A DNA stretch of 63,367 nucleotides, the filler included, from Hausera hauseri (Eukaryota): NCBI GenBank assembly GCA_046269625.1. It is 13 parts of 13 records of this genome, joined end to end, with 100 filler letters (N's around TTAATTAATTAA, not from the genome) between each part and the next. Parts side by side here need not be neighbours in the genome. Positions count along the whole stretch, not along the records: positions 22,197 to 28,085 come from JBJURY010173528.1; 12 more parts are not named here. The stretch is one strand, 5' to 3'. Within the stretch, counting starts at the first letter, position 1; each line of letters starts with the position of its first letter. Below are positions 13,027 through 43,764 of this stretch, one piece after another. Below the pieces are notes generated by a model. The model was not told the DNA's origin and made no database searches. It saw nothing but the letters and a program-made list of their open reading frames with translations. A program made the translations under genes and the position numbers.

Positions 13027-13131
13027 TAATAATTAATTATGTCATGTGGTTGCAACTGTTCATTTTAATTTTTGGGTGAATTATCGTTATGGATATTTGC
13101 ATTTTTCAACATTTCCTCATTCGATTTATTT
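13027..13131 (+). repeat. Left arm of a 105-bp inverted repeat bounding contig 4
   Basis: Reverse complement of 17867-17971 with one mismatch. Confidence 0.95.
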
Positions 13132-15789: not shown

Positions 15790-16345
15790 AAGTCCATGAT
15801 AATTCCTGCATGTTTGGGTACGAATTTGTCACAAGGAATAACATCCAACAAATCTTTAGCTAAATTGTTTGAACTTTATCGGTGCACAAAATTATCCTCC
15901 TATCGCTTGGGGTCGTTAGCAATTTATTAATTTTGGCAGTTTTCGTCAGAAATGCCTCGCTGAGAAACAGTGACTCAACAACGACAATGTCAAATTGATT
16001 GATCAAATTATTTGGAACTTCTGTTGGAAATTTGTAATCATATTTCACAAATCCATCGCATTTGTTAAATCAATTGTCATATTCAAGTAAAGTCGAACGA
16101 ACACAAACCACTTTTGATAATTCAGTTTTTATGGATATTACTTCCTTTCCCAATTTAATTCCCAATTTAATTCCCAATTTAATACTTTTCCCAATTGTTT
16201 CATCATCATACCAAAATTGTGACAAATGCTAATCTTCCTTTATTTGTTTATTACCGGAATCATCATATACCTCAGTGCCAAGTGATTCTTGGATAAATTC
16301 AGTTAGAGCTTTCAAAGTTTCTGGACTCAAATACAAATTACCATA
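15790..16345 (-). pseudogene. EEF1AKMT1: eEF1A lysine methyltransferase 1 (N6AMT2) pseudogene
   Basis: KED*HLSQFWYDDET; YDYKFPTEVP..FDIVVVESLFLSEAFLTKTA..RIILCT; CDKFVPKH; DPPF motif degraded; stops, frameshifts and a 12-bp triplication at 16147-16182. Confidence 0.8.
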
Positions 16346-17866
16346 ATTAAAAATCATTCTGAATTCTTTAAATCAAAAGTTCAAATGAGGTCAAACTTGT
16401 TTATTAAATTTTAAAAAATGTACATAAATTAAATTTTTTGTCACAGTCAAACAAAACGTCCATTTTATTTGGGCAAATAAACACAAAAGAACAAACAGCG
16501 GGCAAATCGACTATATAGCGAACTCCGCACTTGTTCACTATTGCACCAACATGACAAAATGACAAATATAAAAATATCACGGCAACGTTTCATGGCCAAT
16601 AAATTTTTAACAAATATGTATAATTAATGATTTGTAATGTGCAGCTTTCATGGACAAGTGATTTTTTAAAGAATAGGCAATCGTTGAAATAATGGTATTA
16701 TATGCGGAATTTCATCAACAGTGCCGATTAGATCTTTAACCCATTCATGTATTTCAACACACTGCGTATCAAATTCTGTTCGATATCTCTTCGATGTCAC
16801 TGTTGGCCGATCTACAAGCTCGGGTTTTATTACAAAGACCTGTAAATAATTAAATTGTTTTGGTTCGGCAACATAATCCGACATAGATCACATTGGCATC
16901 TGTCGTGTTGGAATCCGAAAGAATCACGATGCAATCAATGTACTTCTTTACATGATTAAAAACTTATTTGATGACACTTCATCTTTGTCAATCTGTTTTC
17001 TCAGTGGAATTTCTTTGTAATCAGTAAGATAGGACTGAGAATGGAGTTGTTTCAGAATCGATTGGAGTTGTTTCATCTTCGATTCGCTAATGAAGTACAA
17101 GTAGGCCAATTCGATGTCGAGTGAGGTTTAATGAAATTTGAATTTGTAATTTTTTAGGAAAAAAGTAATAGATAACACTTTTGAGTATCTACTCAAGTCA
17201 TGCACGGTTCAAATACTGTTTATGTATTAAGCATGTAACATCTCATTTTGACTTTGTCTATATTTGCTCTGACAAATATCTTTAAGCAAGGTTCTGATCT
17301 GAAACTTTTTCTCGAAATTTGCAAATGCTATTTACAATACCAGTAATGTGACTTGGATCCAATGCTTCTACAACGTTTTCAATGGTTACACCATCATGTA
17401 CATGTGCGTCAAACTGTGAAATACGCTCTTGTAGCGTGACTGGTCGGCTGCCAATCGAGCAAAGACCAAAAGGCGAAGGCCGAGGCAGAAAACACGCCGA
17501 TCTAGCAGTGTGGAGTGCCAAGTTTAAAACCGAAATCGTGTCGACACCTGCAAACGCGCCACTACAATCGACATCGAATTTTCATTCATTTCTTCATTAT
17601 TGTATGAGATGAAATTGAACTGTTTCACACAAATGATAATTAATCTCTAGCAAGCCTTTTCCAAAATTTAAGTCATGATTTGAAAATTCAAACTGAATGT
17701 TACTGCACAATAATTTTCGTTCGTTTCATATTTTACAGTACGTCCACGATGTGATATTTGAATTTAATTAATTGGTATTTCTACAGTTCATCAAAATCTT
17801 GACATTTTAAATGCACAATTTGAAGAAACAACAATTATTCATAAAATAGTTAATTAATTAATCATA

Positions 17867-17971
17867 AAATAAATCGAATGAGGAAATGTTGAAAAATGGA
17901 AATATCCATAACGATAATTCACCCAAAAATTAAAATGAACAGTTGCAACCACATGACATAATTAATTATTA
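17867..17971 (-). repeat. Right arm of the 105-bp inverted repeat bounding contig 4
   Basis: Reverse complement of 13027-13131. Confidence 0.95.
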
Positions 17972-18344
17972 CNNNNNNNNNNNNNNNNNNNNNNNNNNNN
18001 NNNNNNNNNNNNNNNNTTAATTAATTAANNNNNNNNNNNNNNNNNNNNNNNNNNNNNNNNNNNNNNNNNNNNGTACATTGGATTTCCCTTTGAAGACAAA
18101 AGGTTTTTCTCCTAGTTGATTTTTTTTTTCTTCAAACCTATTACTGTTACATGCACTTTTCTTGTTACTGATCTATGAGGCTTATTTTAGTTTCCCGTAC
18201 TATATTTTAAAATAAAAAAACACTTCAGGAGATTCTTATTATTCGAATTAATCTAAATATGAACGAATACTTCACACCAGAAACACAAAGAAAGCCAGAT
18301 TTTACAAAACAGACCTCCACATGTCACAAATGGCAACAAAACAC

Positions 18345-19406
18345 AGATGATTCTTTCCAGCACCTTGCCATACACATTCTGTAGGTTGATGATACGATAA
18401 CCTTTAATATTTGTGGCTTTTTTGCCAGGTTTTACCAAAGGGAACAGCTAGCTGTGTAGCTATTCCTCTGGTATACTACCTGTCTTCAGACTCTTATTTA
18501 AGTCTTCTGTAATCTTGATTACTAGGTCATCTTCATTGTCTTTTAGTAGACTATATCGTATTCCATCAGGTTCTGGTGTGCCATCAGATGCCCGGCGGAT
18601 GGCATATTCAATATCCTCCATGTCTACCAGATCTTCTGTTACATACATTGTTCCTATAGTTGTTGTTAATGTTGCAACTACTGTCATGCGTTGAGCTATG
18701 TCATCTTGACTGGTCTGCTGGAGGTACCTATCGAAAAAGGCCTTTCCTTTCTGGTCATCGTTTATGTCTACATAGGGCTTGGTGCTGTTTTTCCGGTTCA
18801 TTGCTTTGTGCAGTTTCCAGAATTTGTGTGAAGCCCTGCCGGCTGTCACCTTTTCTGTAAATTTCGTCCAGCTTTGCTTCTTGGCTTCCCTAGCCATTTG
18901 TTTGAAGTCCTTGATAGCTCTTTTCATTCTGCTCTCTGACTTGTTTATTCTCTCTCCTGAGGCTCGTACTTGTCTTCGCTCACGCTGCCAGACTTTAGTA
19001 GTTTATTTCTTTAACACCCATGCTGCTTCGACTTCTTTAGTCCACCACGGGGGTTGACTGATGTTGGGTCGTATCGTTTTTCTGTCCCAAGCTTTCCGTC
19101 TCAACTGTCCAAGCGCTGAGTCATCGGTGCATGGATATCTAAAGGCATGCTGTATCTTAGTTCGTCTGCTGGGCTGGCTTTTTGTGATGGTTTCCGAGCA
19201 TGGCAAATGATCGCTGCCATGGTATGTTAATCCTCCCATCGGGTGTCAAAAGCGCATTGACAGGAGACTAATGCAAAAGGTCGATGTTTGAATCAGAGTC
19301 ATTATCTCTTGTAGACATTCGAGTCATATTTTCGCAGTTAAGGACTGTGAGTCCCGCCTCAAGAAGACACGAGCCTAAGACCTGCCCCTGTGGGTCGTTG
19401 TTCGTG
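18345..19406 (-). mobile_element. Non-LTR retrotransposon (LINE) fragment: APE endonuclease end, linker, RT start
   Basis: HGSDHLP, PPWWTKEV, TPEPDGIRY, KPGK..KGYRIINLQNVYGKVLERII; ends abruptly at the Polinton terminus at 19407. Confidence 0.85.
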
Positions 19407-22196: not shown

Positions 22197-22952
22197 CGAC
22201 TTATACCATTAAATGCTTCTATTCCTATTCCGGAATATTGTTTTCTGGTTAGACACAAATCCACGACGTGCTGTGTAATACAAGCAGGACAAAAGTATCA
22301 GTTGCAATTCGATTTGTATAATACGCACCCCAGAGAGCCAAGCACTTATTTGCGTGGATTTCGCCCGAGAACTGTAATATGGGAGCTTCCTTTTCCGACC
22401 ACTACAAGTAGACTATCTACAATTCCAAGCACAACTCTCCTTATTTCGATCGTCACTTCGGACGAAAAGCCCGGAAGCATGCCAATTAAGATTTTGGCAA
22501 AAAGCGATAAAATTGTATTTTACGCGGAAGAGACACTTCTTCGAGACGTCAAGATCAAATGTCGTACTTTGCACACCAACCAAGTCGTGATCCTGAAAAA
22601 GAATAGTCAAGAAGCTGAATGTAGGTCACTACGACCGCAATATGACTATATAATCAGAATTACCGCAAAGGGTAAGAATCTTAAAACTTTTACAGTACGA
22701 ACTCTTGGCAATAGAGTTGAAGTAATACCATATAAAGATATCAGTACTCAAAATGTGTTCACCACGGAAAGTTCTATTGAGCCGAGTAATCTACCGATAA
22801 TAACTATATTCAGTTTGTTAATTTTCGTTCTTGTCATGGTAACAGCGGTGATTTTTCTAGTTTCCAAAAATTGTAGTAAGCGCTGTAAAAATCAAGAGGG
22901 AGATAAACGGGTAAAAGGGTACCGAGACGGACCTTATGATAGCATAACTTGA
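22197..22952 (+). CDS. Single-pass membrane protein with an FN3-like domain (5'-truncated); putative retroelement accessory gene
   Basis: Open frame runs to the contig edge; CRSLRPQYDYIIRITAK..FTVRTL is FN3-like; TM LPIITIFSLLIFVLVMVTAVIFLV; short basic tail ending YDSIT. Confidence 0.6.
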   Translation, partial: RLIPLNASIPIPEYCFLVRHKSTTCCVIQAGQKYQLQFDLYNTHPREPSTYLRGFRPRTVIWELPFPTTTSRLSTIPSTTLLISIVTSDEKPGSMPIKILAKSDKIVFYAEETLLRDVKIKCRTLHTNQVVILKKNSQEAECRSLRPQYDYIIRITAKGKNLKTFTVRTLGNRVEVIPYKDISTQNVFTTESSIEPSNLPIITIFSLLIFVLVMVTAVIFLVSKNCSKRCKNQEGDKRVKGYRDGPYDSIT

Positions 22953-23057
22953 CAGCTACAGGTCGGGTTATCCCATCATCAGACAGAGAAAATGTTTTGT
23001 TTCAAAACGATGATCTGTCTTAGGATTAATCTTTATTTTTATTTCAGCAAAGTAAGT

Positions 23058-25466
23058 ATGACCGAAAAGGCGAAGAATTCATCAGTCACTTCCAATTTCG
23101 ACATCTATAATTTCTTGCAACAACACGTCACTGTCCTCAAGCCGCTATCCAAAAATCTATACCGATAAATTGGAAAAAATTTGAAAAGCCAGAATTATCT
23201 AGAATTCAACCAAGAGAGTAAAATACCGAACGGACTAAAATGGGGTTTAGAAGAGAATAGATTGGTCCGATTATACGCCATGCGAAGTCGAAAAGATGCA
23301 CGAGTATACCTTTTAAAAGATCTAATTCCATATGAGCCAACACATCAGCAATTGTACGTACATGTCGCTGATGGAGAAATTCAATACAGGATGTTAGGAC
23401 AATCCTGGAGCACCCAAAAGGGACAGCAGTGGAAATTTAGCACTTATGAGATATGTTGTTATAGCCTTATGGATTATGCTCTGGAACTCAGAATTGCAGA
23501 CCTGCCGACCAAAATCATGATCGAAATGACATGGCGAACAGAAATGATGAAGCCGCTATCCCGACTATAATATGTACAAAAACCATCTGAAAACGAAATA
23601 TAGCAAAATAGGGAATCTTACAGATTAGTCCCAGATGGCCGAAATACCCGGATATTGGCCGTAAACTATGGAGAAAAGGATGACGGACGGTACTTTCCGA
23701 TCGAGGTATCCATCAGAAATACTAATGGAGAGGAAATCATAAACAAAATAATTGCACCTCGGGCTAGGATAAAAGATACTTTCCCCGACGTTACTGGAAT
23801 CACGAAGCCGCAGCTCGAAAAGGGAAAAGATTTTTTGGAGATCCAAGAAGATATAAGACATTGCTTATATGGATACGTCGTTACCGGATTCCGAGTGCAC
23901 GAAGCGTTGGAGCGACTAGGAATCAGACAAGAATACATAGCCGGAATTCGAGAATTGAGTAGAAACCCAGCAGTAGTGAGCCAAGTGGAAAGTACACTGA
24001 TACGGAAAAGAGGCTGTCTGCTGCCGTCAGCATCCCGTGAATAGCAATTTATGATGCTAGAAGCCATGAATGGCGATCGATTCAAATTCCCTAAGCTTAT
24101 GAGAACAAGCCAAAGGACCAAATTCGTAAAATATATCTATAACTCGTTACGGTGGGATCACGAATGGAAACCCAGAAGTCCCATACAGAATGCAATATCT
24201 GGCAACAACCCCAAGGCACTGATACAGAAATTCCGAAAAGGGTTTAGTGAATACCCTAGCTATCGACAGATCGAAACCCGTAAACATAACCAATTCCGAA
24301 TAACAGTCTATAACAACCCAACGGAAGCCCCAAGCAATCAACAGAAACCATCAACCAGTAAAGCTAAAGAAGTAACAATAAGAGCTGATAATTCAGAGAA
24401 ACCGAAGAGGCAAAAGACAAAGACCTCTTTTCTGGACTACATCAACAAAAAAGAAGCAAGACCAGCAAGTGCCCAACGACAGATAACCTAATCCCGGAGA
24501 AACACATAAAATATCAGAAAGGAGTAGCAAATCAAGAAAAACGGAAAGAAGATAGAGAAAACCAACTAGAAATTACTAAGCCTAAAACCCTTAAAACGGA
24601 AGTTAACGTTCTTCGGAAGAACTGGGAAGAAGATAACCCAATTATCGTCACAGAATTTGGCCAAGTAAAAGAATATAAACGAATCCACGTCATGGCCGAA
24701 TACTATAGCAAAGGGAAAATTAAAGAGACTATATTTTACGTATCTACCGTTCCAAGGCGAATAGTGAGTGGAAACGGATATGCCAGAGAAGACCACGCTA
24801 TTGGCAGATACCTAGCCACAATATTTCAATCAAAAAGTGGCACTAACAGATTAACAATTCCCGTGGATACCCAAGTTAGGATTCAACTAAAAACACAATA
24901 CAAGAAGACTGGAGTACCCGATTTGGACAAACAAGAAATAGTCGAATGGACCTTAGTCGCAGTATCCGATGACCCAAAGAAAAGCTCAATAAACCCAAAT
25001 CAAGAGATTGTACGGATACTTATATCAAGACAAGAAAGGCCTGGTATTTGAGAGAATAGAAGTGGATGAAGACCTTGTGGACATTGATGCGGCCGAAAAA
25101 GAAGAATGTCCCGTTTGTGACGCGGATCTTTATCAATGTTTCGTAGTCCTAGATAATAAGGATTGCAGCCATAAATACTGCCAATATTGTGTGGAAACGT
25201 GGACTCTAAAAAATGGGAAAACGACCTGCCCAGTATGCCAAGCCTACGCTACAAAGCTGAGATACTACTCGAATGGCGAGAACAAGAAAATAGTGGAGAT
25301 ATTGCCCGAACCAGCCACTACATCCTATCATATTAATTTGCAATCACCATCTAACGAAACAGATTCGGAAGCGGACTTACACGGACGAATGCACAGATTA
25401 CGCGGCACCTCTACTGACGCAATGGGCACATCCGAGAGTGCCGTTCAGAATAGACAAATGTTGTAG
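23058..25466 (+). pseudogene. Accessory polyprotein: VHL/BC-box-like region, REX4/ISG20-type DEDDh-like domain, basic linker, C3HC4 RING finger
   Basis: ATG 23058 and the ORFs at 23181, 23655, 24051 and 25008 share one frame (24692-25051 is shifted); TRILAVNYGE..IEVSIRNTNGEEIINKIIAP..DVTGITKPQL..DFLEIQ..GYVVTG; CPVC..CSHKYCQYC..CPVC. Confidence 0.7.
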
Positions 25467-26180
25467 AATGGCCGTTGTAGACTATGAAACCGAAACCGAA
25501 ATTGAATGTAAATAATTACATAGACGGAAAAGTAGAAATAATGACAATGAATTAATTATAAACAATTGAATCAAACTAATTATAGCAATTGAATGATGTA
25601 TACGGATTGTAAATAGAATTGAATTATATTGAATACAGAAAATCAATTTAATTACAAAATTAATTGCATGTAAACAATGGCTCTAAACGTATATATAAAA
25701 GATGTACATACAGTAATCGTAGTAGTTCTTAACCAGAAGCTATTTAACAAGTTGTCAGTTAGTCAGTTGTTATACGATTCTCAGTCAGTATTATTCCGTG
25801 GATCAAAGACTTGAAATTGACGATTATATTCGAACTATTGCTTTTTGATCTGACATTATTTCTGTTGAATCGAAATTATTGTTAAGGTATAATTTTCGTG
25901 TTTAATAAATTTTTGTATCTAAATTTCTAATAGTTTTCCGTCGCTCCTTACGAGGGACTTGCACCATACTAAGTTTTAAAATCATTGTAAAATCCATAGC
26001 TAAGTTGAGAATTTTGTAACTTACGCAATCACCGCATATACAGTACACGCATCTTAAATCAGTGCAAACATTCTAACGAGAGCGTTAGATCTTACCTGCG
26101 CGACTAATATTATCTAAATCTTAAAACTTACTCATTGTTATAGTTGGGTGTTGGATAGGGCCCACCTTCAACTATTAACA
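25459..26180 (+). mobile_element. LTR of the gag-env element (5' boundary approximate)
   Basis: Ends ...TTAACA just before the PBS; TATATAAAA near 25692; AATAAA at 25904; 3' part similar to 32383-32634; candidate TGTT start at 25459. Confidence 0.8.
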
Positions 26181-26183
26181 TTT

Positions 26184-26201
26184 TGGCGACCCTAGAAGGA
26201 C
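26184..26201 (+). promoter_or_regulatory. Primer-binding site, tRNA-Arg type
   Basis: TGGCGACCCTAGAAGGAC, 3 nt after the LTR; complementary to a ...GTCC...GGGTCGCCA tRNA-Arg 3' end. Confidence 0.75.
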
Positions 26202-26259
26202 AGTTTGCACTTGCTAGACTTGACTCTTAGTGAAAAGTAACGACGTATTAGCGATCAGA

Positions 26260-28085
26260 GCGGTAATTATGATCGCCGAAACGATCGATACAGCAATCAG
26301 AACTTTGATAATAGTTGAAATAGCTTTTCTAATAAATCAAATTACCAGACAGATAAACGCCTAAATGGCTCTAAAAACTTTAGTCGACAAAATGACAACC
26401 GGAGTTATGATAATCGTCAGTATGAAGACCCCAGACAGACTCCACCGCAGCAAGGTTACAATAGAAATCCGAGTAGACCGAAATCTCCATTAAACGAAGA
26501 TGGCCGACAAAGGGTTGGAACAAATGGCAATTTAGTCTGTTTCACATGTGGACAAGAAAGACACATAGCGAGGTCCTGTCCGAATCAGCGAAGTGTCGAA
26601 TTTGTGGAACCTAGTAAAACCAATGTAATTAAAAACGAAAATTTAGAAGCAATTTACGGTGTTCGTAGAGACACAGGAATGATTATTGAGATACAGAATT
26701 TACCACGTTTCTTAAAAGCCCAGCCTGAGACTAAGGACCCCAAAGTTTTAGTGGCTAGAAATGAATATAAGCACAAATTACGACTAATGGAAGTTTACCA
26801 CGGCCTGCGTGAACCAGAAAAGGAATATGAACATTCCATTGCCCCACCAAGGCTAACTGTTATGGTTCGGAAAAAGAACGCTCCTACGATAAACAAAGAA
26901 CCAATCGAATCAGGGATGCCTGAAACTCCGGATAAGGAAGATTCAGAACCTGAGTATGCTATAGAAAAGGTAACCAAGGAGACAGAGCCCGACGAAAAAG
27001 AAGAATTTATCGAACCGCTTATACTTAAAATCACCAAGAATAGAAGCCGTAGCCCATCACTGAGACGGACACGTAAGGATCGTTCGAGATCCCCAATGAT
27101 CAAAGAGAAATCAAGGACAGAGATACGGAATTCGCATTAGAGAGTGAAACGGAGTGTGCCCCACACATTTCGAAAATTAATTTAGTTACGCCCAGCGAAA
27201 TGGGTGAGCTGATGAAATCTATAGATGAAATAAATGATGTATGTCGCTTACCTGCAAGCGAAGAGGAAACAGAACGAGAAGAAAAACTCGATCCTAAAAG
27301 TGGAAAATTAGGCGCTGGTGGAAAAAATGCAGAGAAGTTAAAAAGAATAAGGATGAATTATCGCAAACCAGAGGTATTACGACAGAATCTAAAGAAGCTC
27401 AAAGCAATGAACGAACAAGTGGATATTTCTAGTAAAGAACAGCAGTTTGTAGAAAGATTATATAAAAAATATGAAACTATGTAGCGAAGGGAAACTAAGT
27501 GAATCTATAGATTTGGATCAGCCAGAAGTGGCAAAAAACCCTAGTTCATTGAAAACGTGAATTAGAACGCTGGTTCAAAAGACGAAATTTCCGGAGACAT
27601 GGGATAAAACTACCCAAAACATTGAAACTAGGGTCAACCAGTCTCAGACGTTATTAGCCACATTAGAAGCCAACCCGAAATTAAAAAGAGCAGCACGTAA
27701 TTTGGAGCGTGTCATGGACGAATTTAGATTCATCATAGTTAAACAGGTAAAAAAGAAGCCGGTCAAAGAACGAGATGCAAACGACTTAGAGATATTGGGT
27801 ATAGATATATTAGATATTCCGCCCTTAACGGAAATGATAAAAATCGCTTTTACTGCGACAAGGCAATATACTAGTCTGGAAAACCGTCTTAAAATAAAAG
27901 TCGAAATGCGATCGCAAATATATAGTCTAAGGAATAGGATCATGCACCCAGCTGATATAGAAACACAAAAAATAATTCTTACTTGTATCCTCGAATTCGA
28001 TGAATATAAAGATGAGTTTGACTATGCCTACAGGATTATCGATTTTATTAGAGGTCCAGATGACGAGTTAGATGACGCCCGCAAA
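26260..28085 (+). pseudogene. gag: gag-env element copy A: capsid deleted; CCHC knuckle in frame with unknown region X
   Basis: CFTCGQERHIARSC at 26538-26579 reads straight into VEPSKTNVIK; collinear with 33786-35610. Confidence 0.85.
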
Positions 28086-28690: not shown

Positions 28691-29219
28691 AATACCCACT
28701 CTCTGGTATGTTTGCTGAATCAGAATTGGATCGTTTGAAATTACTTATTGAAAAGTAAACACCAGTTGTAGAAAATTTTTATTATAATCCAAAATACTTA
28801 TTTGGAAACAAATTTTCCCAAATTATAAATTCAAATCAAAATTTTAATATTACACTTTTAAATTAAATTTTTTTTAATTTAAAAATTGTTGTAACTTAAA
28901 TTTAGAATTTGCGTTCTCCATTATATCCTCACAGTTATAGCACTGGACAACAGAAAGAGTCAAATTATTTACTCTTTGCAATAAAACCTACCACTTTACA
29001 ACAAAATGAGACAGAACGCATCAGTTATTACCTTGACATAACGGAACTCAAACAACCAATTAAGGAATCTGGAAGCTATGCTCAATCTCAGGATAGTTTG
29101 ATGGTTATGTTATCAAACAGAACAATAACAAACTATTGTGCAGCAAGCTATATAGACGACACAGACGATCATAATGATATACTAACGTTCCTTCAATTAA
29201 TAAGAGGTAATTGGCCTCA

Positions 29220-32200
29220 TGCGACAGCTCATTTTGGCACTTTTGATTTAAATGCAATGATTGAAACAAGAGCCAGTATTTCGCTAATAGCACGGCATGC
29301 AATACCTAACAAATTCCAGTCTCAAATAAAACTAGTTCCAAAAGATTGTACAGGAACTATTTCAGTTTTCCACTAATGTTCAAAACCTTATGGATACTGG
29401 AAATATGAACTACTGATTTGTGAACAAAGGATTAAAGTAACACAGGATGTAATGAATACTTATACCCTCGATGCATTATAGGGATGAATGTATTACGAAA
29501 ACTCAAAGGGTTCCATATTAACCTACAGTCAAGATCTATCTGTCCTAATAAAGATATTCCCAGAAATTATGAAAAAGCAGATATTTGGCTAGAACATATT
29601 AAGAAAATACCGCCGAATTCTAGGATGGTTATTCACACTAGAATAATATTTTCGGATAACAGCATCATTGAATTCGTACCACAAATTATTCTAAATGGAC
29701 TTATATTATCACACTACTGTGTCAATGCGATAGGAGGAACAACTCCTATTGAAGTATTGAACCCATCGCCAAAATACATCACATTATTTCCAAGAATGAA
29801 GATTGAACAAGCACATGAAATTATTCGTCACGCTGAAATTGACAGAAAGCTTGCAGCAGTTTCTTTAGATATGGAAAAGAAAGTCGAAGATATGCTCGAT
29901 ACTGTTCTCGTAAAGGCGAAGAAAAATTTATCAGTGGAACATTTAAATAATTTCTCAGAACTAATTTATGAATAAATTTATATATTCGCTAAAGATGAGA
30001 CCGACATTGGGCGAACCGATTTAGTCGAATTCAAAATGTCATTCTTGACTGATCCTCAGACAGGAAAGGAGATAGATTTATTGCAACAACCTATATTAAA
30101 GTGATACCCACATCCTAAAGCACTCCAAAAGGAAGTTTAGGAACAAATACAAACAATGTTGGATAAAGGCATCATTGAGACTAGTCAGTAACCGTAGCCA
30201 TCGCCTAGTTATGGCAAGAAAGTCAATACTACAAAACATCGTTTGTGTGTAAACTACTTTACATTGACTAAGCATCTCATGAACCGTGCTTATCCAATAC
30301 CGTGAATACGACATATTATCGACGAACTTAAGGACTGTAAGTATTTTACTACTTGGGATTTGCAGAGTGGATTTTGGCAGATTCCCGTAGCTGAAAGTAC
30401 CATTAGAAGACTGCGTTCAAAACACATGCAGAAGTTTACCAATTTACACGCATGCCATTCGGGCTAAAAACAGCATTAACGTTCTTTCAAGAATTTATCC
30501 GTCTAGTCCTAAAAGAAGTACGTGGATTGTCGTGTACAGACGATATTTTGATTGCAGCAAAAACTTGGTCAGCACACTTAATGGGATTACGAGAAGTATT
30601 CGACCGGATTAAACTTGCGAAATTGAAACTAAATCCAAAAAAGTGTGAATGGCGTAAAAACAAAGTTCGATATCTTGGATTTGTAGTTTCAAACCAAGGA
30701 ATATCTACCAGTCCGGATTTAATAGCCAAAATATTTAAGTATCCCCCACATACCAGTTTTCACGAAATGAGAGTTTGGTTGGGATTTGGAGGATTTTACG
30801 CCACTTTTAAAGAAAATTTTGCCGAAATTAATCAACCACAATATAAACCGTTGAGAAAGGACTGGAAATGGGAATGGACCGAAAAAAATCAAACTTCTGA
30901 TGAAATTCACCGACGTTTAGTATCTGCGGCAATGGTGAGATATCCAGATTTTTCCTTACCGTTCATCTTAAAAGCAGACGCCAGCATCAAGCAATCAGTT
31001 ACATTTTGCACAACAGAACCCGGACGAGTTAATTGAACATGTAATTGCTTATGGAGGACGCAGTTTAAACAACGCTGAGAGAAAATACTCTACCACAGTT
31101 AGAATTGCTAGCAATACGCGACAGATTACGTCACTACAATTATTATGTTTATGGACACAAAATTATGGAAGTTAGAACTCTTGAATTATGATGTTTAGTA
31201 TAGATACCGACCGGAAAGGAAAATACGGATGCAGACACAATTTCGCGATTATCATATGAGAAAATAGTAGTTTTGGTACATAAGCCAAGGGTTACACAAT
31301 AATATAGGTAACTGAATGAAAAAATAATTAACGAGATGCTACATGAACAGCAACAAGTTCAGGTTCGAAATATCGAAACCTTATAAAATCAAGATCCATT
31401 TATTGTTCAAGTCAAACAAATAGTAAATGGACAAATGACTGAGCAAGTGTCAAATCAAATTCAGAAATTTTATGAGAAACGAAAGGAACAATTAGAAATT
31501 GAAAATGGCATTCTAAAACTCAATGTCGGAGAACGAAAACTCATAATCGTACCTAATATAGCAATTAAATCTGTGATGTTACAAGAGCACGATTCGCATC
31601 TAGCAGGTCATCCATCTTTAAATAAGACACTAAAGCATATAACCGCAAAATATTATTGTCCTCAGATGAACAAGCATATTAAAGGATGGGTACGCTCTTG
31701 CAAAATGTGCGCAACTCGAAAAGATAAAGGATTTCGTGCAAAACCATTTCTAGGAAGCCTTCCTGAAGCACGACAACCTATGGAAGTTTGTTCAATGGAC
31801 ATTTCGGGACCTTTTCCAACATCTGATTCAAGATATAAATATATTCTGTCACTCGTAAATTATTATTCGAGATATGTCGTTTTGGTCCCATTGAAAAATA
31901 TGACAAGCAGTACTGTCGCAGAAGCCTTTTCTATCAAATAGTATCCGTATTAGGCATGCCGAAACAGTTGTTAACTGACCGCGCACCATATTTTATCAGC
32001 AAATTTTTCGAGAAATTAACAAAGATTTTTCAATGCAAACATTTGTTAACTACATCCTACTATCCACTATGTAATGGTATGGTTGAAAGAATGAATCGAA
32101 CAATTCAAGGTATTCTGTCCACAAAAGTCGTCCATGATCAGAAAAATTGGAACCAACATTTAAAAACAACTTCATACGCAATAAACACTACACCTACGAA

Positions 32201-32282
32201 AAGCACCAATCATTTACCATTTGAATTAATGTTAGGACGATTACCATTATTACCATTAGATACTGAATTATTACCATCTTCC
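29220..32282 (+). mobile_element. pol: Ty3/gypsy pol (PR, RT, RNase H, IN), decayed
   Basis: AMIETRASISL; MPFGLKTA..CTDDILI; FILKADAS; HDSHLAGH..CKMC; MDISGPF; LTDRAPYF; NGMVERMNRTI. Confidence 0.93.
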
Positions 32283-32382: not shown

Positions 32383-32634
32383 TCTTATAGTTTCCGTCGC
32401 TCCTTACGAGGGACATAGAAATGCTAATCTAAGGATTAAAATCACATTAAACTTTATAGATAGGTCGAGAGTCGATTAAACTACGCAAGGCACCGCAAGC
32501 AGTACACGCATTCTAAATTTGTGCAAACATTCTATCGAGAACGTTAGAACTTATCTGCCTAATATTATTGTTAAATCAAATTTCATTACTGTTATAGTTG
32601 GGTGTTGGATAGGGCCCACCTTCAACTATTAACA
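32383..32634 (+). mobile_element. 3' part of the 5' LTR of gag-env element copy B; PBS at 32637-32654
   Basis: Homologous to 25930-26180, with an identical ATAGTTGGGTGTTGGATAGGGCCCACCTTCAACTATTAACA end; PBS TGGCGACCCCAACAGGAC. Confidence 0.88.
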
Positions 32635-32922
32635 TTTGGCGACCCCAACAGGACAGTTTGCACTTGCTAGACTTGACTTTTAGTGAAAAGTAGCGACACA
32701 TTAGCGATCAGCGTTAACACATCAAATAATTGATTGCAGGTTGTCGTGAGACTAAAATTTGGGATTATAAAGAAACCCTCAATATTATAACGACATATTA
32801 TTTAATCAAGAGCGAATATTGATAAACATAGGTCAGACGATAGCTTAAATCTTATTCTAAACGGTAAGGAGAGTATTAATTTTCGCGAAACACGTAATAA
32901 AGTATATAGACAAGATAAGACG

Positions 32923-34110
32923 TTGATTAGTCGCACTTTATCTGAAACGAATTTAGCTAACACTGAACCTATTAATTTAAACTCTGTTGGAAAGCATACT
33001 GAATTTAAAGTTCCTGATAAGAGAATTAGACCTCGTAAAATAATTGAGCAAAACCTAATAAACGTTGAAAACATGGTTGAAAATCGGGCAGTAGCTCAGA
33101 AACTGGATATTTTTACATTTGGCTGTCTGAATTTGCCAGCATATAACGGAGACCCGGACGGACTTAACGAATTCTTAAGGATTTATAAGTTGCAAGCAGA
33201 AGGTGCTGGACTAGCAGCTAACGTGATGATTGAACGTTTGTCGTTATATTTGAAGAATCTGGCCGCTGATGCCTATAGTGAGCTCACTGATGATGAGAAG
33301 AAAACGTGGTCCTCCCTGGTAGGAGTTCTGAACCGAAAATTATTGCCGACTGTAACTCCGCAACAAAAATTTATGGCTTTCCAGAATAGAGCACAACAAA
33401 AGGGTGAATCCATAACCCAATTCGCTTTTGCCTTAAAGAAATTGGCAAACAGTTACTCAAGCACCTTAAGAATCGCAAACATAGCCAAGGCTAAAAACGA
33501 AGCAGAACAAAAAGCCGCAGAAAAGGCAGGTCCTCCAGATTTGGACGTCATGATGATGACACAGTTAATAAACGGTATTTGGTCTAAAGACATACTAAAG
33601 CAACTGATTCTAGCGCGCCCGGAGAACTTTGATAGGACATTGCAATTAGCTTAGGACTTGGAAATTGCACTAGAAACAACGACAGAAATGGAAGAAATAA
33701 TGATCAAAGTAATCGATGTAATAGAAATCGGAATAATAGAAATGATAGACGAATTAACAGGAATTATGGGGATCGGAACAAGAACGGTAATTATGATCGC
33801 AGGAACGATCGATACAGTAACCAGAATTTTGATAATAGTCGAAATAGTTTTTCTAGTAAATCAAACTATCATACGAATAAACGGCTAGATGGCCCCAAAA
33901 ATTTTAATCTACAGAATGACAGCCGGAATTACGATAACCGCCAATATATGGATTGTAGGCAAGCCCCGTAGCAGAAAGGCTACAATAGAAATCTTAGTAG
34001 ATCGAAATCCCCAATAAACGAAGATGGCCGACAAAAGATCGGAAAAATGGCAACTTAATCTGTTATACATGCGGACAAGAAGGACATATAGCGAGATCCG
34101 GCCCAAACCC
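32923..34110 (+). pseudogene. gag: Ty3/gypsy-type Gag (capsid, RN-rich linker, zinc knuckle), copy B
   Basis: LPAYNGDPDGLNEFL..LYLKNLAADAY..QQKGESITQFAFALKKLA; CYTCGQEGHIARS at 34061. Confidence 0.9.
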
Positions 34111-37100
34111 TCGAAGTGTTTCGTTTGTCGAACCTAGTAAAATTAATGTGATTAAAAACGAAAATTTAAAAGCAATTTACGGTGTTTGTAGAGACACGGG
34201 TATGGTCATCGAGATACAAGATTTACGACGTTTCTTGAAGGCCCAGCTTGATACTAAGGACCCTACAGGTTTAGTGGCTAGAAACGAGTACGAACATAAG
34301 TTACGATCATTATAAGTTTATCACGGTGTGCGCGAACCAAAAACGGAATATAAACGTTCCATTGCCCCCCTAAGGCTCAGTGATATGGCACGGAAGAAGA
34401 ACATTCCTACGGTAAGTAAAAAGTTAGATGAAATAGGAAAACCTAGGACTCCGGACAAGGTAGATTTAGGTGTAGAATCCGAATATACTATAAAAAGGGT
34501 AACCAAGGAGTCTGAGGCCGACGAAAAAGAAGAATTTCTGGAACCACTGATACTTAAAATTACGAAAAATAGAGGCCGTAGTCTATCATTGAGACGAAAA
34601 CGCAAGGATCGCCCGAGATCCCCGATGATTAAGTAGAAACCGAGCACAAAGATAGAAACCGAAATCGCTTTAGAAAACGACATAGAGTGCGCCCCGAACG
34701 TTCTAGAAATTAATTTAGTTACGCCCAGCGAAATGGATGATCTGACGAAATCTGTAAATAAGATAAACGATATATGTCCTTTACCTACTAGCGAATAGGA
34801 AACAAAACAGGAGAAGAAACTTGATCCTGAAAAGTGGAAAATTAGACGCTCGTGGAAAAATGCCGATGAATTAAAAAGAATGAGGATAAATTGCTTCAAC
34901 CCAGAGGTAGTGCAACAGAATCTAGATAAACTCAAGGCAATGAATGAACAAGTGGATATTTCCGGCAAGAAACGGCAGTTTGTAGAGAGATTATATAAAA
35001 AGATGAAATTATACAGCGAAGGGAAACTAACTGAAGCTATAGACTTAGATCAACCGGAAGAAGTGACAAAAGAAAAACTAGACAAATGGAAATGCGAGCT
35101 GGGAGTCTGGATGAAAAGTGGGATGAAAACTCCAGAAGCGTAGAATAAAACCACCAAAGATATTGAAACTAGAATCAACCAAGCTCGGTAGCTATTAGCT
35201 ACATTTAAATTAAAAAGAGTAGTACGTAATTTGGAGCGTGTCATGAATGAAATTAGATTTGCAATAGTCGAACGACTTAAGGAAAAACCGGTCAAGGAAC
35301 AAGATGCACATGACCTAGAGATGTTGGGCATAGATTCGATAGATATTCCACCCTGAATGGAAATAATAAAGGTTACTTCGACGGCCTCAAAGCAATATAC
35401 AAGTATGAAAAATCGTATTAAAATTGAAGCCGAAAAACGGTCGCAGATATATGGTTTAAGGAATAGAATTATGCACATCAATAACGAAGAAACACACAAA
35501 ATAATTATGGCTTGCATCCTCGAGTTCGATGAATACAATGACAAATTTGACTATGCCTGCAGGATCATCGATTTTATTAAAGGTTCAGATGATGAGCTAG
35601 AGGACGCTCACAAAATGTTAAACAAAGCAATATTGGCAAAGCCAGAAATCGCTAATCAGTTGAAAGAATGGTCCAAAGTAATAACAAGGTTGAGTGCATT
35701 GATAAACAATCGGAAGAACGAATTTCCAGAGAGCGAGCCTACAGTGAAAAAGCGATTAGAAAAAGACTCCCGAAATCTAGATACTATGAAGGCAGAAACT
35801 GACCTCCGAACTCAATTTGAGGCATTACGTCAATTGGATTTTATGGAAAATAAACAAGAAATGGCGATACTAGATGATATATATATAAGATGATCGAAGA
35901 AACAAACTTCATGCGGAAACGAAACGCGACTTGTGATTTCTATCCGCGATTAAGAGATATCCGGCTGAAAGGAATACGGTATTTGACAACCAAACCTATC
36001 GAGGAAATCTCAATCCGTGACCTTAGAACCTTGGACTTTTGTCCCGAATCTCGGTCAATGGTGGAAGAAGCGGTGAAGTTCTTACACCAGCCACAAGAAT
36101 GGATAGATGGGACGGATCAAATGCATCAAATGAACTGAATAAAATGAAGAACGACCACCGCCTTAGCTTCGAAGAAATCAAATTTGTAAAAAAGCTATTA
36201 GATGCGATAGATCCAAATTCAAAAAGTATTAACGAGATGTATGAATTAGCGTTGCTGATGGCGGAAATGGCAGAAATTAATGACGAGAAACTAAGACAAT
36301 TGTTGCAGCAGATACAACAAGTCGAAGAAACTTGCATTAAAACGAAACAGAGAGCAATGAGATTAGACAAACTCGCTAGAGAACTCGACGTCTATAAGAA
36401 CAAATATGCCCTTAACGAAGCAAAAAAGGCTGACAAGTCATAATTCGTGCAAAGCTGGCAAAGATATGTCACGTCCGAACTAACAAGCTATCAAGAACAA
36501 TGACTGATTTCTGCAGAAGAATTATGTTCGTTGTTAACGCTGCTACACCAAACTTCTGCTAATGGGCGCTGTTTTCGAACGACGAAAATGGTCCAAATGC
36601 AACAAAAACTACAAGAACTCAGAAAAACTACATGGACCGCAGGTGTGAATATGCCAACTAATGCACCGTCAAGTGACTATGAACTGCCGGATAATGAGAA
36701 TGAAACAGAATAGGAGGCATATTTAGATGCAGTGATTGCCGAGAACCCTAAAACTCCCATACGACGGAGAGAAACGGAGGTATATTTTTCGGACCAAAGA
36801 TTTAACGTAGGAATGCTCCTAGACCCAATACAAACCGAGAAATATTTAATTCAGTTGATCGAAGTAAATCTCACGGAAATTTAATTATGACAGTTGGTCC
36901 CCACTCTAACTAAATTAGCTAGCGAAGGTACGATATATAGTACGGTACCTAAGCTTTTACTTAAGAAGCATGCTAAATTCTTAAAGAAAAAGGCAGAGGA
37001 GACGATTCCAGTAAAGATAGTATCTGACTGGATGGCCGAGAAGGAGCACGAGTTCACTACGCGCTCCCGCGTGAAAGACGTAATATGGTGGATAAGAAAT

Positions 37101-37947
37101 AATGGGTACAACCAGGAGTTAAACTACAGACTCTATTTTAGAGGGAGAATACTAGAGGAAACGGAGCTGTTAATAGAAGTCAGCATTATTCCAAGTGAAG
37201 CAAACCGTATAGTTGTAGCCATTCCTATCGAAGAAACAAAAGAAGAAGCCATAAGAAATTCTAAAGAGAAACAGTGCGTAGGATGAATCATAGGAGTTCG
37301 AGATGCAGTAATGTATTTAGAGTACTTGCAGACAGACAGAGATAATGAGCAATACGATAAGAATTTAGTACCCATTAACGATAACGTACTTGCTGTAACA
37401 AAACAGAAGCGTCTTGTCGGTAAGCTGCGGAAAATACGAGAGGAAATCGATTACAATGGAGATTTAATCAAAGAGTTGAGGCAAATGTCCATACCGACCT
37501 TCAGTACGGATAATGAGGAACTGAACGAACTTATGAAGAATTTGATTCAAATAGTAAACTACTCTAGTCTCGGCGGTGATATATTGGATGAGAAAGAGAA
37601 GGCCATATCTAATGCCGCAAGGGCCATGAAGGGCCTCCGGTGTAAATTATTCAGAAGTACCTTAAGCGATGAAGCGGTGATTGAGAAAATTATGGCCGAA
37701 AATAACATAGAAGAATTAAGAAAAGTGTTGCTATATCTGGCCATTAAAACTAACCCAAACCGAGAAAATGAATTCAACAAGACTACTAGTTTAACACGGA
37801 AGGCTGCCAGGAAACTACCTCGAGAGGTGAACTGGTCTAAGTTATTCGAAAAAGAAGAAGAACATCAAAGTAGATCATTCTTCGGTAACAATAAATTCAA
37901 AGATCTGCTACGAAATGCAACCGGAAATCACAGAAGAAATCAGTCGA
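34111..37947 (+). pseudogene. Unknown charged, helical region X fused to gag, including a ubiquitin-like domain near 37000-37220
   Basis: Consecutive ORF fragments homologous to 26604-28085 and 52750-54293; no PR/RT/RH/IN motifs; ETIPVKIV..RVKDV..YRLYFRGRILEETELLIEVSI is UBL-like. Confidence 0.75.
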
Positions 37948-40061
37948 ACTGGCTAATCAACTTTTTGACCATGATGGTGTTAATAAGACAAATGGGTGCG
38001 GTTGCAGTATATGATTGCAACAAATTTAGACTTGGCCAAAAATATTCAATAATGGACTTGGAAATGTGCGAAGACGCGAGACCACACAAATTAGAAACAA
38101 AAGAGAAAAGTTACGTCCTGTATCAACAACGCAAACTAGTCACGTTGGATGGAGTAGAATGTATGTTGCAACAATATCGCAGCATCTTTCATTGTGGCCT
38201 GGTACACGGACACTCGTCAATAATCAAGCCAACAACCCCGCCAATTCCGATGAACTTAGAATGACAGCATTGTAAGCAAGCTAGAGAAACTGGGAAAATA
38301 AAATGAAACGGCATGGAACTGGAAATGCAACAAAACAAAATAATCAGAGTATACAAAGTAGCGGCAGAAAGACTAGATATGCACACCGGAAAATGATTAG
38401 AGTCGAATATTTTAGTAGTAGACTTTTATGAAACCGAAATGCGCATACAGAAGGTAATGTTCCATAGTGTTACTAAACTTTACACCGAGAACTATAAGTG
38501 TCACATTCAAGATGGCACATGCCCGTTCCGAAGTTTTATAGTAATTTGGGAACCTCCAGCCAAGACCGATTGCAACTTTATCAGAATTAAAGAACTTAAA
38601 TTCAATGAGACGACAGGAAAACGGTACATAAGTAGTACAGAAACTTATTTTAAAACACTAGAAGATGTAGTTAAACAGTCCACACCAACGATACGGATCT
38701 CTGATACCCACGGACTAAAGTTTGTGAAGAAAGATGTACTCACAAGATGTGACGTTATACTGTACGCTACCAACTATGAAGTATTTTTAGTCGTGGAGAC
38801 GGAAATAAACGCCAGAACGTTCAAGCTCGAGATTCAGGACATCCGGATTGAAGGCTATTTGAAGAACAGAGACAACTATTTCTACTATAAGGGACAAGCG
38901 GGAATAGCCGAGCTATACCACAAAATGATAACCAATGACTGCAAGTTGTATTTAGAAATAATAAGAACTAAGCTGGCCCTAATATATGCCAATCTCGAGT
39001 TGGCATCACCAATAATTCCAATGAAGGAAGGTGTTTTTGGACGGGTAACCCGAGAGGTCTTATTGACATATGAGTGCGAGATGAAAGACGTACAGATTAA
39101 CGTGGAAGAGAAGAGGTGTATACAAGAGCTTCCCGTAATATATCAGGACGTACCTAGAAAAGTAACACCAATTACCAGAGTATTGTTGTCAAATTCTACC
39201 CAACCGACAATCCTGAAAGATTGTAAGACCAGCCTGGGCCAGCCGATGTTCAGAAGAAGTGAAACCGACGGGGTAATTTTACCGAGCAGCGGTATTATCG
39301 CACCACCTGCCAAGTTGACAGGGACAAACTTAATAAAAGGAATAACCAATGATAAATTTTAAGATACAGCCGCGAAAGGTATTTACCGACCAAAAGAAGT
39401 AGAGGCGTTCAGACAATTTCTCGACTTCCCTTGTCAGCGTACGCGCGAACTGAATCGAGCAATGCACACAATATTGGAGGATTCGTGCTACCAAGCGAGA
39501 TGGGAGTCATTACTCGGTTTTGGCTATTATAAAAAGCTAACTACGGAAATACTGTACAAAATTTGGGGAAGGTTCCTGATATTCGGACAAGCCGCGTCAG
39601 GATTTCTAACGATATACTTCTTAATTCAACTGGTAAAGGCTATAATTCAAGCAATCATAAATGGATATGAGATATTTACTTTGACAGGATTTTCGTGCAA
39701 AATTTTAACGGCTATTATTACACCTTTCGGCAAATTCTTAAGGGCTTATGAAGAGAGTAAATAAAAAGCAGATGCGCAGCGACACGTTGGCTATCATAAT
39801 CGAAAACGTAAAAGACGCATATTTGATTATAGGCAAAAATTCGTAGGTAGTAAGACACGAAGAAATAATTCTGACGATGACGAGCCTAAGGGTGGAGACG
39901 TCATCTCTAAATTGAACAGGCACAAAAATTACTTTGTTATAAAACTACCATTACCAATATTGCCGCCAACGGCACCTACATATGAAGATTGCGAGAAACA
40001 ATCTATGAGCTCGTGCCAGACAGACGTCTATCGGAAGCCGTTTAGTTTAGAAGACCTGTAA
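37948..40061 (+). pseudogene. env: Envelope glycoprotein, chuvirus-like class III type, copy B
   Basis: Internal signal WLINFLTMMVLIRQMGA then VAVYDC..YSIMDLEMC..Q..ECMLQQYRSIFHCG..HSSII; C-terminal WGRFLIFGQAASGFLTIYFLIQLVKAIIQAIING..TGFSCKILTAI, the pattern of Chuviridae G proteins. Confidence 0.8.
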
Positions 40062-40263
40062 GGTTCCACCTTACAAAAAGAAAAAATATAAAAATCACAA
40101 TATAAAATCACGGATTCATGTACAAACAAAAATTAAATTATCAAAATAAAATTAATATTCAGCNNNNNNNNNNNNNNNNNNNNNNNNNNNNNNNNNNNNN
40201 NNNNNNNTTAATTAATTAANNNNNNNNNNNNNNNNNNNNNNNNNNNNNNNNNNNNNNNNNNNN

Positions 40264-43727: not shown

Positions 43728-43764
43728 TATTTGAGAATATTTGCTTATATTTTTTTGAAGCCTA

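What the first reader, a model, noticed from the sequence alone, without database searches (positions are those of the whole stretch)
22197..26180. Complex-retrovirus-like accessory cassette immediately upstream of the family's LTR
Seen: 3.3 kb of tightly packed, intronless, same-strand ORFs (FN3 membrane protein, then a BC-box/DEDDh/RING ORF) run right up to an LTR whose 3' part matches the LTR heading the gag-env element. Inference: this is the 3' end of the same element, giving it host-manipulation genes. Established: extra ORFs, including DEDD exonucleases, occur in bdelloid rotifer LTR elements, and giant planarian elements carry extra domains. I do not recognise this combination.
Basis: partly seen in the sequence, partly recalled or inferred. 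Interest (0 to 1): 0.8.

Follow-up and report, generated by a model that had tools for sequence, protein, structure and literature searches.

The report
Retrotransposon tail with host-like accessory genes
A decayed copy of a retrovirus-like jumping gene appears to end in two extra genes, a receptor-like membrane protein and a disabled nuclease joined to a ubiquitin-tagging domain, a cargo that may help the element evade its host's defences.

Summary
The cassette is real and most likely the 3' end of an envelope-carrying Ty3/gypsy element, but the picture needs corrections. The window is a set of unlinked contigs joined by artificial linkers, so env is not physically linked to the cassette. Within the cassette's own contig, ORF2 ends at a purine tract and runs into a 722-nt TGTT…AACA LTR. 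The LTR is followed by a tRNA-Arg-type primer site and a partly deleted gag of the env family (78–80% identity). This PPT–LTR–PBS junction suggests a shared LTR. An intact 870-aa relative ends with codons that force the same purine-tract/TG signal, and an ORF1 relative sits on a contig of identical length (16,242 nt). ORF1 is the rear half of a three-repeat FN3-like type I membrane protein. ORF2 is decayed here (4 stops, 2 frame changes). It combines an unknown domain, an ISG20-like DEDDh domain lacking catalytic residues in all three close copies, and a complete RING finger. No BC-box was found. ORF1's stop has a readthrough-type context, in frame with ORF2. Extra ORFs and gag-linked gB-type env are known; I found no report of this cargo. 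Function is inferred only.

The parts
22197..22952 (+). ORF1, 5'-truncated by the contig edge: C-terminal 251 aa of a type I membrane protein (most of FN3-like repeat 2, S/T-rich linker, FN3-like repeat 3, TM at about 22797-22862, short tail ending YxxIT). The full-length relative P0007 (479 aa) has a hydrophobic N-terminus and three repeats.
22950..22958 (+). ORF1 stop TGA followed by a CARYYA-type hexamer, in frame with ORF2: candidate stop-codon readthrough site (post hoc observation).
   Evidence: 14 of 6,556 stop triplets in the window have this context; 1 of 71 stops that end a >=100-codon frame, namely this one; motif from passages
22992..25466 (+). ORF2, decayed (4 in-frame stops, 2 frame changes), collinear with the intact 870-aa relative P0005.
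23100..23600 (+). N-terminal domain of no known family, always found ahead of the DEDDh domain in the distant relatives long enough to cover it.
23646..24165 (+). ISG20/REX4-like DEDDh domain without catalytic residues (pseudo-nuclease).
24665..25060 (+). Conserved pre-RING domain of unknown family (54% identity to P0005).
25107..25238 (+). C3HC4 RING finger.
25447..25458 (+). Degenerate polypurine-tract-like run (10 of 12 purines) inside the last codons of ORF2.
25459..26180 (+). Inferred LTR, 722 nt, TGTT...AACA. TATA-like at 25690, AATAAA at 25904. The 3' 255 nt match the LTR of the gag-env contig. The 5' edge is inferred, not seen in a second copy.
26184..26192 (+). Primer-binding site; 9 nt complementary to tRNA-Arg 3' ends listed in a published PBS table.
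26257..28085 (+). Distal gag (CCHC knuckle about 26535-26585) and downstream coiled region of the env family, 78% identical to 33781-35614. About 1,070 nt of leader and gag capsid are deleted at 26257/26258.
32383..40163 (+). Separate contig: LTR 3' part (to 32634), PBS (32637), gag (33073), long coiled region, possible ubiquitin-like domain, and gB-type (Monjiviricetes_fusion) env at about 37959-39776. No pol. Decayed.
50283..54293 (-). Separate contig: second, more diverged env copy (67% nt). A frame stays open for about 135 codons past the env-tail PTAP motif to the contig edge.

Best explanation
The cassette is the 3' accessory region of a large Ty3/gypsy LTR retroelement that carries a gB-type envelope directly behind gag. 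It lies between the element's internal genes and its 3' LTR, and ORF2 overlaps the polypurine tract and the first bases of the LTR, as HIV nef overlaps U3 (recalled analogy). In this contig one LTR serves both as the 3' LTR of the cassette-bearing copy and as the 5' LTR of a gag-deleted copy, either as a tandem or as a collapsed or circularly permuted assembly. SHOWN: junction anatomy, domains, loss of catalytic residues, decay of this copy. INFERRED: the LTR 5' edge, co-location in a relative, position of pol. Most likely mechanism (about 0.45 given membership): ORF2 is a RING E3 ligase whose dead ISG20-like domain, with its N-terminal partner domain, works as a binding module that brings host anti-retroelement factors or RNPs to be ubiquitinated. 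ORF1 is a receptor-like surface protein with a YxxI sorting tail, acting as a decoy or adaptor. Occasional readthrough of the ORF1 stop could anchor the ligase to membranes.
For: Junction: a 10/12 purine run, then TGTT, 722 nt, AACA, TTT and the PBS. The ORF2 stop lies inside the LTR. The last 13 residues are 8/13 identical to those of P0005 although the tail before them is gapped and divergent. P0005's terminal codons force >=10 purines, 5 of them G, before a TG; 0 of 237 other Met sites in the retrieved proteins are as extreme (threshold set after seeing the site). After the LTR the contig continues into gag of the env family. Relatives of both genes (P0008 46%, P0005 43%) lie on ENA contigs of 16,242 nt. 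ORF2 has the family's A-rich sense strand: AT skew +0.28, against +0.28 for gag-X and +0.24/+0.23 for the env contigs. The dead nuclease site is shared by the window copy, P0005 and P0006 at 41-51% identity while the RING ligands are kept, which implies selection on a non-catalytic role. Precedents: extra ORFs downstream of pol or env, and env in frame behind gag; tandem elements sharing an LTR (abstract); a circularly permuted LTR scaffold.
Against: No second LTR copy covers the 5' edge, and the relative's DNA was not seen. The window PPT is degenerate, and another TGTT in the contig (22993) has 11/12 purines upstream. Equal contig length is only a proxy: among the 22 relatives with a length, one other pair (P0010/P0018, 1,256 nt, different sources) matches by chance. 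No env relative was found in either size class searched, so env was not placed on the 16,242-nt contig. The composition signal is weak: a LINE fragment scores as high, and ORF1 does not show it. The FN3 model has pLDDT 49 and best VIA Z 7.9. No functional data exist, and this copy cannot make the protein.
Confidence: 0.72

Rival explanations
1. The cassette is the 3' end of a different LTR family (or sub-family) that was joined to the gag-env family through similar LTRs, by recombination or by assembly collapse.
For: Only the 3' 255 nt of the LTR can be compared with the env contig. No pol or env is on the cassette contig. The window holds many collapsed or fragmentary repeats.
Against: The TGTT start and AACA end form one LTR unit with TATA and polyA signals in order. 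LTR identity (80%) equals internal identity (78%) to the env contig. Recombination or collapse needs near-identical LTRs, which means the same family.
Confidence: 0.12
2. Host genes (or a host retrogene) into which the element inserted; the cassette is not mobile.
For: FN3, ISG20-like and RING domains are common in host proteins. The genomic copy number could not be measured.
Against: The ORF2 stop lies inside the LTR, and a 43%-identical relative ends with the same two residues and a forced PPT/TG signal. The body is intronless and decays like the neighbouring gag. No named host orthologue appears among 19 of 19 hits in 1.84 billion representatives.
Confidence: 0.06
3. Same element, but the genes serve its own replication rather than attack host defence: the dead nuclease binds or protects the RNA 3' end or the RNP, and the RING ubiquitinates Gag/Env to aid ESCRT budding (a PTAP motif sits in the env tail).
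For: PTAP occurs at the same place in both env copies. Rodriguez et al. propose RNA-end processing or RNA-binding roles for DEDD ORF3s and note inactive DEDD proteins in piRNA biology.
Against: This does not explain a three-repeat FN3 surface protein. Most gypsy elements replicate without such genes (established knowledge).
Confidence: 0.3
4. The family is non-autonomous and lacks pol, so env is followed directly by the cassette (LTR-gag-env-ORF1-ORF2-LTR).
For: No PR, RT or IN hit in any of the three family contigs. In contig 32383-40163 the env frame stops near 40059 and turns AT-rich.
Against: In contig 50283-54293 the frame stays open to the contig edge, and that stretch has no similarity to the N-terminus of full-length ORF1. 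GAG-ENV-POL order with gB-type env is published. The known parts sum to about 12.2 kb, leaving about 4 kb of the 16.2-kb contig, roughly a pol gene's size (recalled).
Confidence: 0.2

Closest known systems
Burro / GYPSM1 giant gypsy elements of planarians (Arkhipova & Yushenova 2019, PMC6431247, section 7 read; figure not seen)
   Same: Retrotrans_gag plus CCHC, a long extra region, then a mononegavirus-like env in frame behind gag. Accessory ORFs and ubiquitin-related cargo. Decayed copies in some genomes.
   Different: Burro cargo is MATH, BCL2, BIR, ankyrin and SUMO-like, mostly inside a 4,900-5,100-aa polyprotein, in elements over 30 kb. None of those domains was detected here. The text lists no FN3 membrane protein or DEDDh-RING ORF. 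The estimated size here is 12-17 kb.
GAG-ENV-POL HSV/gB-type errantiviruses of Nematoda, Bryozoa and Platyhelminthes (Chary & Hayashi 2026, PMC13524379)
   Same: gB-type env placed behind gag; tRNA-primed Ty3/gypsy organisation.
   Different: The paper's main text has 0 hits for exonuclease, RING, ubiquitin or accessory. pol was not located for the family here.
Bdelloid Vesta/Juno LTR elements with a DEDD exonuclease ORF3 (Rodriguez et al. 2017, PMC5408684)
   Same: A DEDD-superfamily ORF as 3' cargo. The DEED variant they report also occurs in 7 of the 9 distant relatives here that keep Exo I D and E.
   Different: Theirs are described as catalytically intact, RNase D-like DEDDy, stand-alone and without TM or RING. 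This one is ISG20-like DEDDh, dead, and fused to a RING.
PML / Plex9 (Mathavarajah et al. 2023, PMC10123124, abstract only)
   Same: A DEDDh domain paired with a RING-containing protein (PML's RBCC domain is recalled and named in a section heading); acts on retroelements via nuclease or ubiquitin-proteasome.
   Different: It is a vertebrate host restriction factor with the opposite domain order, and no sequence relationship was tested. It is an analogy only.
Complex retroviruses (HIV nef, foamy bel; recalled, no call)
   Same: Accessory ORFs between the structural genes and the 3' LTR, the last one overlapping the PPT and U3.
   Different: Those are Retroviridae with env after pol and unrelated accessory proteins.

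Membership tests
Ty3/gypsy LTR retroelement (Metaviridae) | LTR with TG...CA ends | tested here: met
   TGTT...AACA, 722 nt; 3' end confirmed by a second copy, 5' end inferred
Ty3/gypsy LTR retroelement (Metaviridae) | tRNA primer-binding site after the LTR | tested here: met
   9-nt match to tRNA-Arg ends, in both copies
Ty3/gypsy LTR retroelement (Metaviridae) | Polypurine tract before the LTR | tested here: inconclusive
   10 of 12 purines in the window; stronger signal implied by the relative's codons
Ty3/gypsy LTR retroelement (Metaviridae) | gag with capsid domain and CCHC knuckle | tested here: met
   Retrotrans_gag E 0.0076 and zf-CCHC E 0.00047, both just below the curated cutoffs
Ty3/gypsy LTR retroelement (Metaviridae) | pol in PR-RT-RH-IN order and RT phylogeny | tested here: inconclusive
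   No pol on the three family contigs; the pol contigs in the window cannot be linked. Gypsy rather than BEL/Pao therefore rests on gag and PBS only.
Ty3/gypsy LTR retroelement (Metaviridae) | Two LTRs and a target-site duplication | not testable with these tools
   Contigs end inside the element
gB-type GAG-ENV-POL errantivirus | Class III (Monjiviricetes/gB-like) fusion protein | tested here: met
   PF24664 at E 6e-23, 3e-16, 6e-13 and 4e-39 on four pieces
gB-type GAG-ENV-POL errantivirus | env directly after gag, with no pol between | tested here: met
   Contig 32383-40163
gB-type GAG-ENV-POL errantivirus | pol after env | tested here: inconclusive
   Frame open to the edge in one copy, stop in the other; similarity to the pre-protease region of contig 44551 is not significant (100 and 213 of 500 shuffles)
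Burro | Ubiquitin/SUMO-like domain before env | tested here: inconclusive
   UBX E 0.058; no ubiquitin hit in PDB
Burro | MATH, BCL2, BIR and ankyrin domains | tested here: inconclusive
   None in Pfam scans of the correctly framed pieces; the coiled region 34140-35940 was scanned only in wrong frames and via its copy at 26247-28085
Burro | Length over 30 kb; sequence relationship to Burro1-4 | not testable with these tools
   No Burro sequence available in the tools
Bdelloid Vesta/Juno DEDD ORF3 | Intact catalytic D-E-E-D residues | tested here: not met
   Exo I positions are A and N in the window copy, P0005 and P0006; Exo II and III are lost where covered
Bdelloid Vesta/Juno DEDD ORF3 | RNase D-like DEDDy subtype | tested here: not met
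   The family profile hits ISG20L2, ISG20 and SDN1; intact members have H-x4-D
BC-box/SOCS-box protein | [APST]LxxxCxxx[AILV]-type motif (recalled) | tested here: not met
   0 matches, strict or loose, in 5 of 5 proteins; no SOCS_box in Pfam
FN3 type I membrane protein | Seven-stranded FN3 sandwich repeats plus a single TM helix | tested here: inconclusive
   Three beta domains; Foldseek top hits are tandem FN3 (E 6e-9); VIA Z 7.9, rmsd 2.7, 71 aligned, with mixed Ig/FN3 hits; Atlas 0.87; Pfam fn3 E 0.12; TM clear
C3HC4 RING E3 ligase | Eight zinc ligands; ligase activity | tested here: met
   Ligands complete in the window copy and P0005; activity itself not testable

The most novel reading that the evidence does not exclude
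An invertebrate 'complex endogenous retrovirus' of the Ty3/gypsy lineage, with a gB-type envelope behind Gag and a nef-like 3' cassette. It makes, by CARYYA stop-codon readthrough, a membrane-anchored FN3-receptor / pseudo-ISG20 / RING ubiquitin ligase that removes host surface or antiviral proteins. This would be a dedicated counter-defence E3 ligase in a metavirus.
Probability: 0.17. Interest if true: 0.87.

Novelty: new variant of a known kind. Interest (0 to 1): 0.62.

Why it matters
Envelope-carrying gypsy elements are now known across invertebrates, but they are described as gag/pol/env units, and almost nothing is known about how they counter host defence. A conserved 3' cassette encoding a receptor-like surface protein and a pseudo-nuclease-RING ligase would be a concrete, testable candidate for counter-defence genes in Metaviridae, parallel to retroviral accessory genes. 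It also points to an unannotated family (N-terminal domain plus ISG20-like DEDDh, 15 distant members compared here) in which 6 of those 15, as well as the three close copies, have lost the Exo I catalytic pair.

Tried and rejected
Env relatives, to link env to the 16,242-nt contig: no hit among proteins of 852-2,713 aa or 240-765 aa; 766-851 aa and >2,713 aa were not searched, so a long polyprotein would be missed. Genomic context of relatives: two scans of bacterial/archaeal genomes found none (0 of 298 and 0 of 115 pattern matches confirmed); metagenome and viral contigs were closed, so the context stayed unchecked. Single-sequence fold of P0005: pLDDT 31, discarded. N-terminal domain: no Pfam family, Atlas best score 0.77; a cupin-like look is by eye only and untested. 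PDB sequence search with the ORF1 profile: nothing significant. BC-box: rejected. First LTR-start scan favoured 25507 or 25608 by terminal-repeat match alone; I replaced these with 25459 after the comparison with P0005. No second copy of the cassette or of LTR U3 exists in the window. No stable hairpin after the ORF1 stop (z -1.19). No tRNA gene in the window. Link between env tails and pol contig 44551: not significant. Wrong-frame references (3 of 10, 1 of 2, 1 of 16) were uninformative and are not counted. Literature: searches returned 0 papers holding all terms; one search returned 5 and one search returned 1, none describing this cargo in what I saw. Grohme 2018 and Sacco 2022 are not held, Repbase is not searchable, and paper figures are not visible, so a Repbase entry or figure with this cassette cannot be excluded.
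Full report
Window structure. The window is not one locus. Twelve identical 100-nt linkers join separate contigs. The finding lies in contig 22197-28085, the gag-env element in contig 32383-40163, and a second env copy in 50283-54293 on the minus strand. Only sequence similarity can relate them. The host is not identified; the mix of gypsy, Polinton-like and piggyBac-like fragments suggests an invertebrate (inference).

The ORFs. ORF1 is open at the contig edge and stops at 22950-52. It has a strong TM segment and a tail ending YxxIT. ORF2 starts in the same frame (first ATG 22992) and ends at 25464-66, but it carries four in-frame stops and two frame changes. A search of 5.8 billion proteins returned 2 hits among 4,311 candidates. 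One, P0005 (870 aa), is collinear with all three ORF2 pieces at 40, 54 and 45% identity, so ORF2 was a single gene. A search of 1.84 billion representatives with ORF1 plus the first ORF2 piece gave 19 hits, 4 of them below 1e-30: P0005 and P0006 for ORF2, P0007 and P0008 for ORF1. P0008 and P0005 are both on ENA contigs of 16,242 nt. I read this as the same contig, by inference. Among the 22 relatives with a contig length, one other pair shares a length by chance (1,256 nt, different sources).

Domains of ORF1. P0007 (479 aa) has a hydrophobic N-terminus, three beta-rich repeats, a TM helix and the same tail. Its model is weak (3 sequences, pLDDT 49) but shows three beta domains, the last with seven strands. 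Foldseek's best PDB hits are tandem FN3 fragments (E 6e-9). VIA gives Z up to 7.9 (rmsd 2.7, 71 aligned) with mixed Ig/FN3 folds. The Atlas gives FN3 leads below 0.9. 'FN3-like' is therefore likely, not proven.

Domains of ORF2. The RING passes the Pfam cutoff and keeps all ligands. The nuclease domain has no Pfam hit itself, but distant relatives hit RNase_T, and a profile of 18 sequences hits ISG20L2 (1e-26), ISG20 (7e-15) and SDN1. At the Exo I positions the window copy, P0005 and P0006 have A and N in place of D and E; Exo II and III are also lost where covered. In contrast, 9 of 15 distant members keep Exo I. It is a conserved pseudo-nuclease. No BC-box was found (recalled pattern). The N-terminal and pre-RING domains match no family.

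The junction. Positions 25926-26258 match 32383-32711 at 80%, and 26257-28085 match 33781-35614 at 78%. So the LTR ends at 26180 (…AACA) and is followed by a PBS (9 nt complementary to tRNA-Arg ends in the eLife table) and by a gag copy lacking about 1,070 nt. This LTR is thus a 5' LTR. It also looks like a 3' LTR. The last two codons of ORF2 contain TGTT, the inverse of the LTR's last four bases, directly after a 10/12 purine run, and G+C falls from about 0.41 to about 0.24 just after it. P0005 ends in the same two residues, its last 13 residues are 8/13 identical to the window's after a divergent tail, and its codons force at least 10 purines (5 G) before the TG. None of 237 other Met sites is as extreme (post hoc threshold). 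An insertion into a host gene would not reproduce that. A PPT-LTR-PBS junction is what tandem copies sharing an LTR give (PMC11899658, abstract), or a circularly permuted assembly (PMC5408684). Against this reading: the window PPT is degenerate, one other TGTT has 11/12 purines upstream, no second copy covers the 5' edge, and the composition support is weak.

The family. Contig 32383-40163 reads LTR, PBS, gag, a long coiled region, and a Monjiviricetes-type fusion protein, with frame changes that look like decay. No PR, RT or IN lies on any family contig. Env behind gag is the Burro arrangement (PMC6431247, section 7 read in full) and that of gB-type GAG-ENV-POL elements in Nematoda, Bryozoa and Platyhelminthes (PMC13524379: abstract, section 5 part 1 of 2, section 22, passages and rows of supplementary file 1). 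Pol probably lies between env and the cassette: one env frame stays open to its contig edge, and known parts sum to about 12.2 kb against 16.2 kb. This is unproven, and two env searches found no relative.

Possible expression. The ORF1 stop is UGA followed by a CARYYA hexamer, with ORF2 in frame. That context occurs at 14 of 6,556 stop triplets and at 1 of 71 long-frame stops in the window, this one. CARYYA drives readthrough in TMV and gave about 15% with UGA in a mammalian reporter (passages of PMC4132726 and PMC2194720). A splice-acceptor-like run near 23033-23048 is a rival route.

Mechanism. Shown: domains, dead active site, junction anatomy. Inferred: ORF2 is an E3 ligase whose pseudo-nuclease binds substrate, and ORF1 is a surface decoy or adaptor. 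I favour counter-defence (about 0.45 given membership) over a role in the element's own RNP handling or budding (about 0.3), because a receptor-like ectodomain fits host interaction. PML, which pairs a DEDDh domain with ubiquitin-dependent restriction of L1 (PMC10123124, abstract only), is an analogy and was not tested.

Comparison and novelty. DEDD ORF3s are known in bdelloid LTR elements, but they are described as intact DEDDy enzymes without TM or RING (PMC5408684, parts 1-3 of 5 read, figures not seen). Burro carries other ubiquitin and apoptosis cargo. Searches found no description of an FN3 membrane protein plus a DEDDh-RING ORF in an LTR element. Passages of PMC11410931, PMC13238120 and PMC8532177 added nothing. 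Grohme 2018, Sacco 2022, Repbase, paper figures and the unread eLife supplements could bear on this claim and were not seen. Metagenome and viral contigs were closed, so the relatives' DNA context stayed unchecked.

Verdict. A real, decayed 3' accessory cassette of an env-carrying gypsy-type element (confidence about 0.72): a new variant of a known kind, interest 0.62.

Noticed in passing
whole window; linkers at 4549, 8825, 12926, 17973, 22097, 28086, 32283, 40164, 44451, 50183, 54294, 58799: Twelve identical 100-nt linkers (N44, a 12-nt stop-in-all-frames word, N44) join separate 4-8-kb contigs. Neighbourhood across them means nothing.
   Followed up: yes
23033-23060: A pyrimidine-rich run ending in CAG, followed 4 nt later by GTAAGT and an ATG, near the ORF2 start. 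The residues there (F-x-F...V-S) are conserved in P0005 and P0006, so this may be a splice signal for a sub-genomic mRNA. Unexplained.
   Followed up: partly
39966 and 50686 (-); 44860: A PTAP late-domain-like motif in both env tails, and PSAP just before the protease of another pol contig; 3 of the 4 P[ST]AP motifs in six frames. The similarity is not significant by shuffling.
   Followed up: partly
36990-37250 and 53437-53700 (-): A conserved 87-aa segment (55% identity between copies) before env that looks ubiquitin-like; UBX E 0.058 only.
   Followed up: partly
P0009-P0026 (protein hits): An unannotated family: unknown N-terminal domain plus ISG20-like DEDDh. Of 15 distant members aligned, 9 keep Exo I D and E (7 DEED, 2 DEDD) and 6 have lost them. 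Their genomic context is unknown.
   Followed up: partly
44551-47390 and 28900-32282: Decayed gypsy pol fragments with a spacer between PR and RT that looks dUTPase-like by eye (no Pfam dUTPase hit). The first shares the family's A-rich bias and is a candidate pol of a related element.
   Followed up: partly
4649-8824 and 58899-63367: Polinton/Maverick-like fragments: rve integrase at 5886-6275 (-); polB-like pieces by eye only.
   Followed up: no
11918-12924 (-): An intronless, frame-broken AAA ATPase (Pfam AAA; PEX1-like by eye) next to a gypsy fragment, possibly a retrocopy.
   Followed up: no
13026-17972: A contig bounded by 112-nt inverted repeats at 97% identity (13027-13138 / 17860-17971), like a non-autonomous DNA transposon.
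   Followed up: no
47500-49200; 40264-44450; 8925-11055 (-); 18463-19002 (-): A piggyBac-like transposase piece (DDE_Tnp_1_7) inserted in a pol contig; two related gypsy pol fragments; a LINE-like RT fragment (by eye).
   Followed up: no
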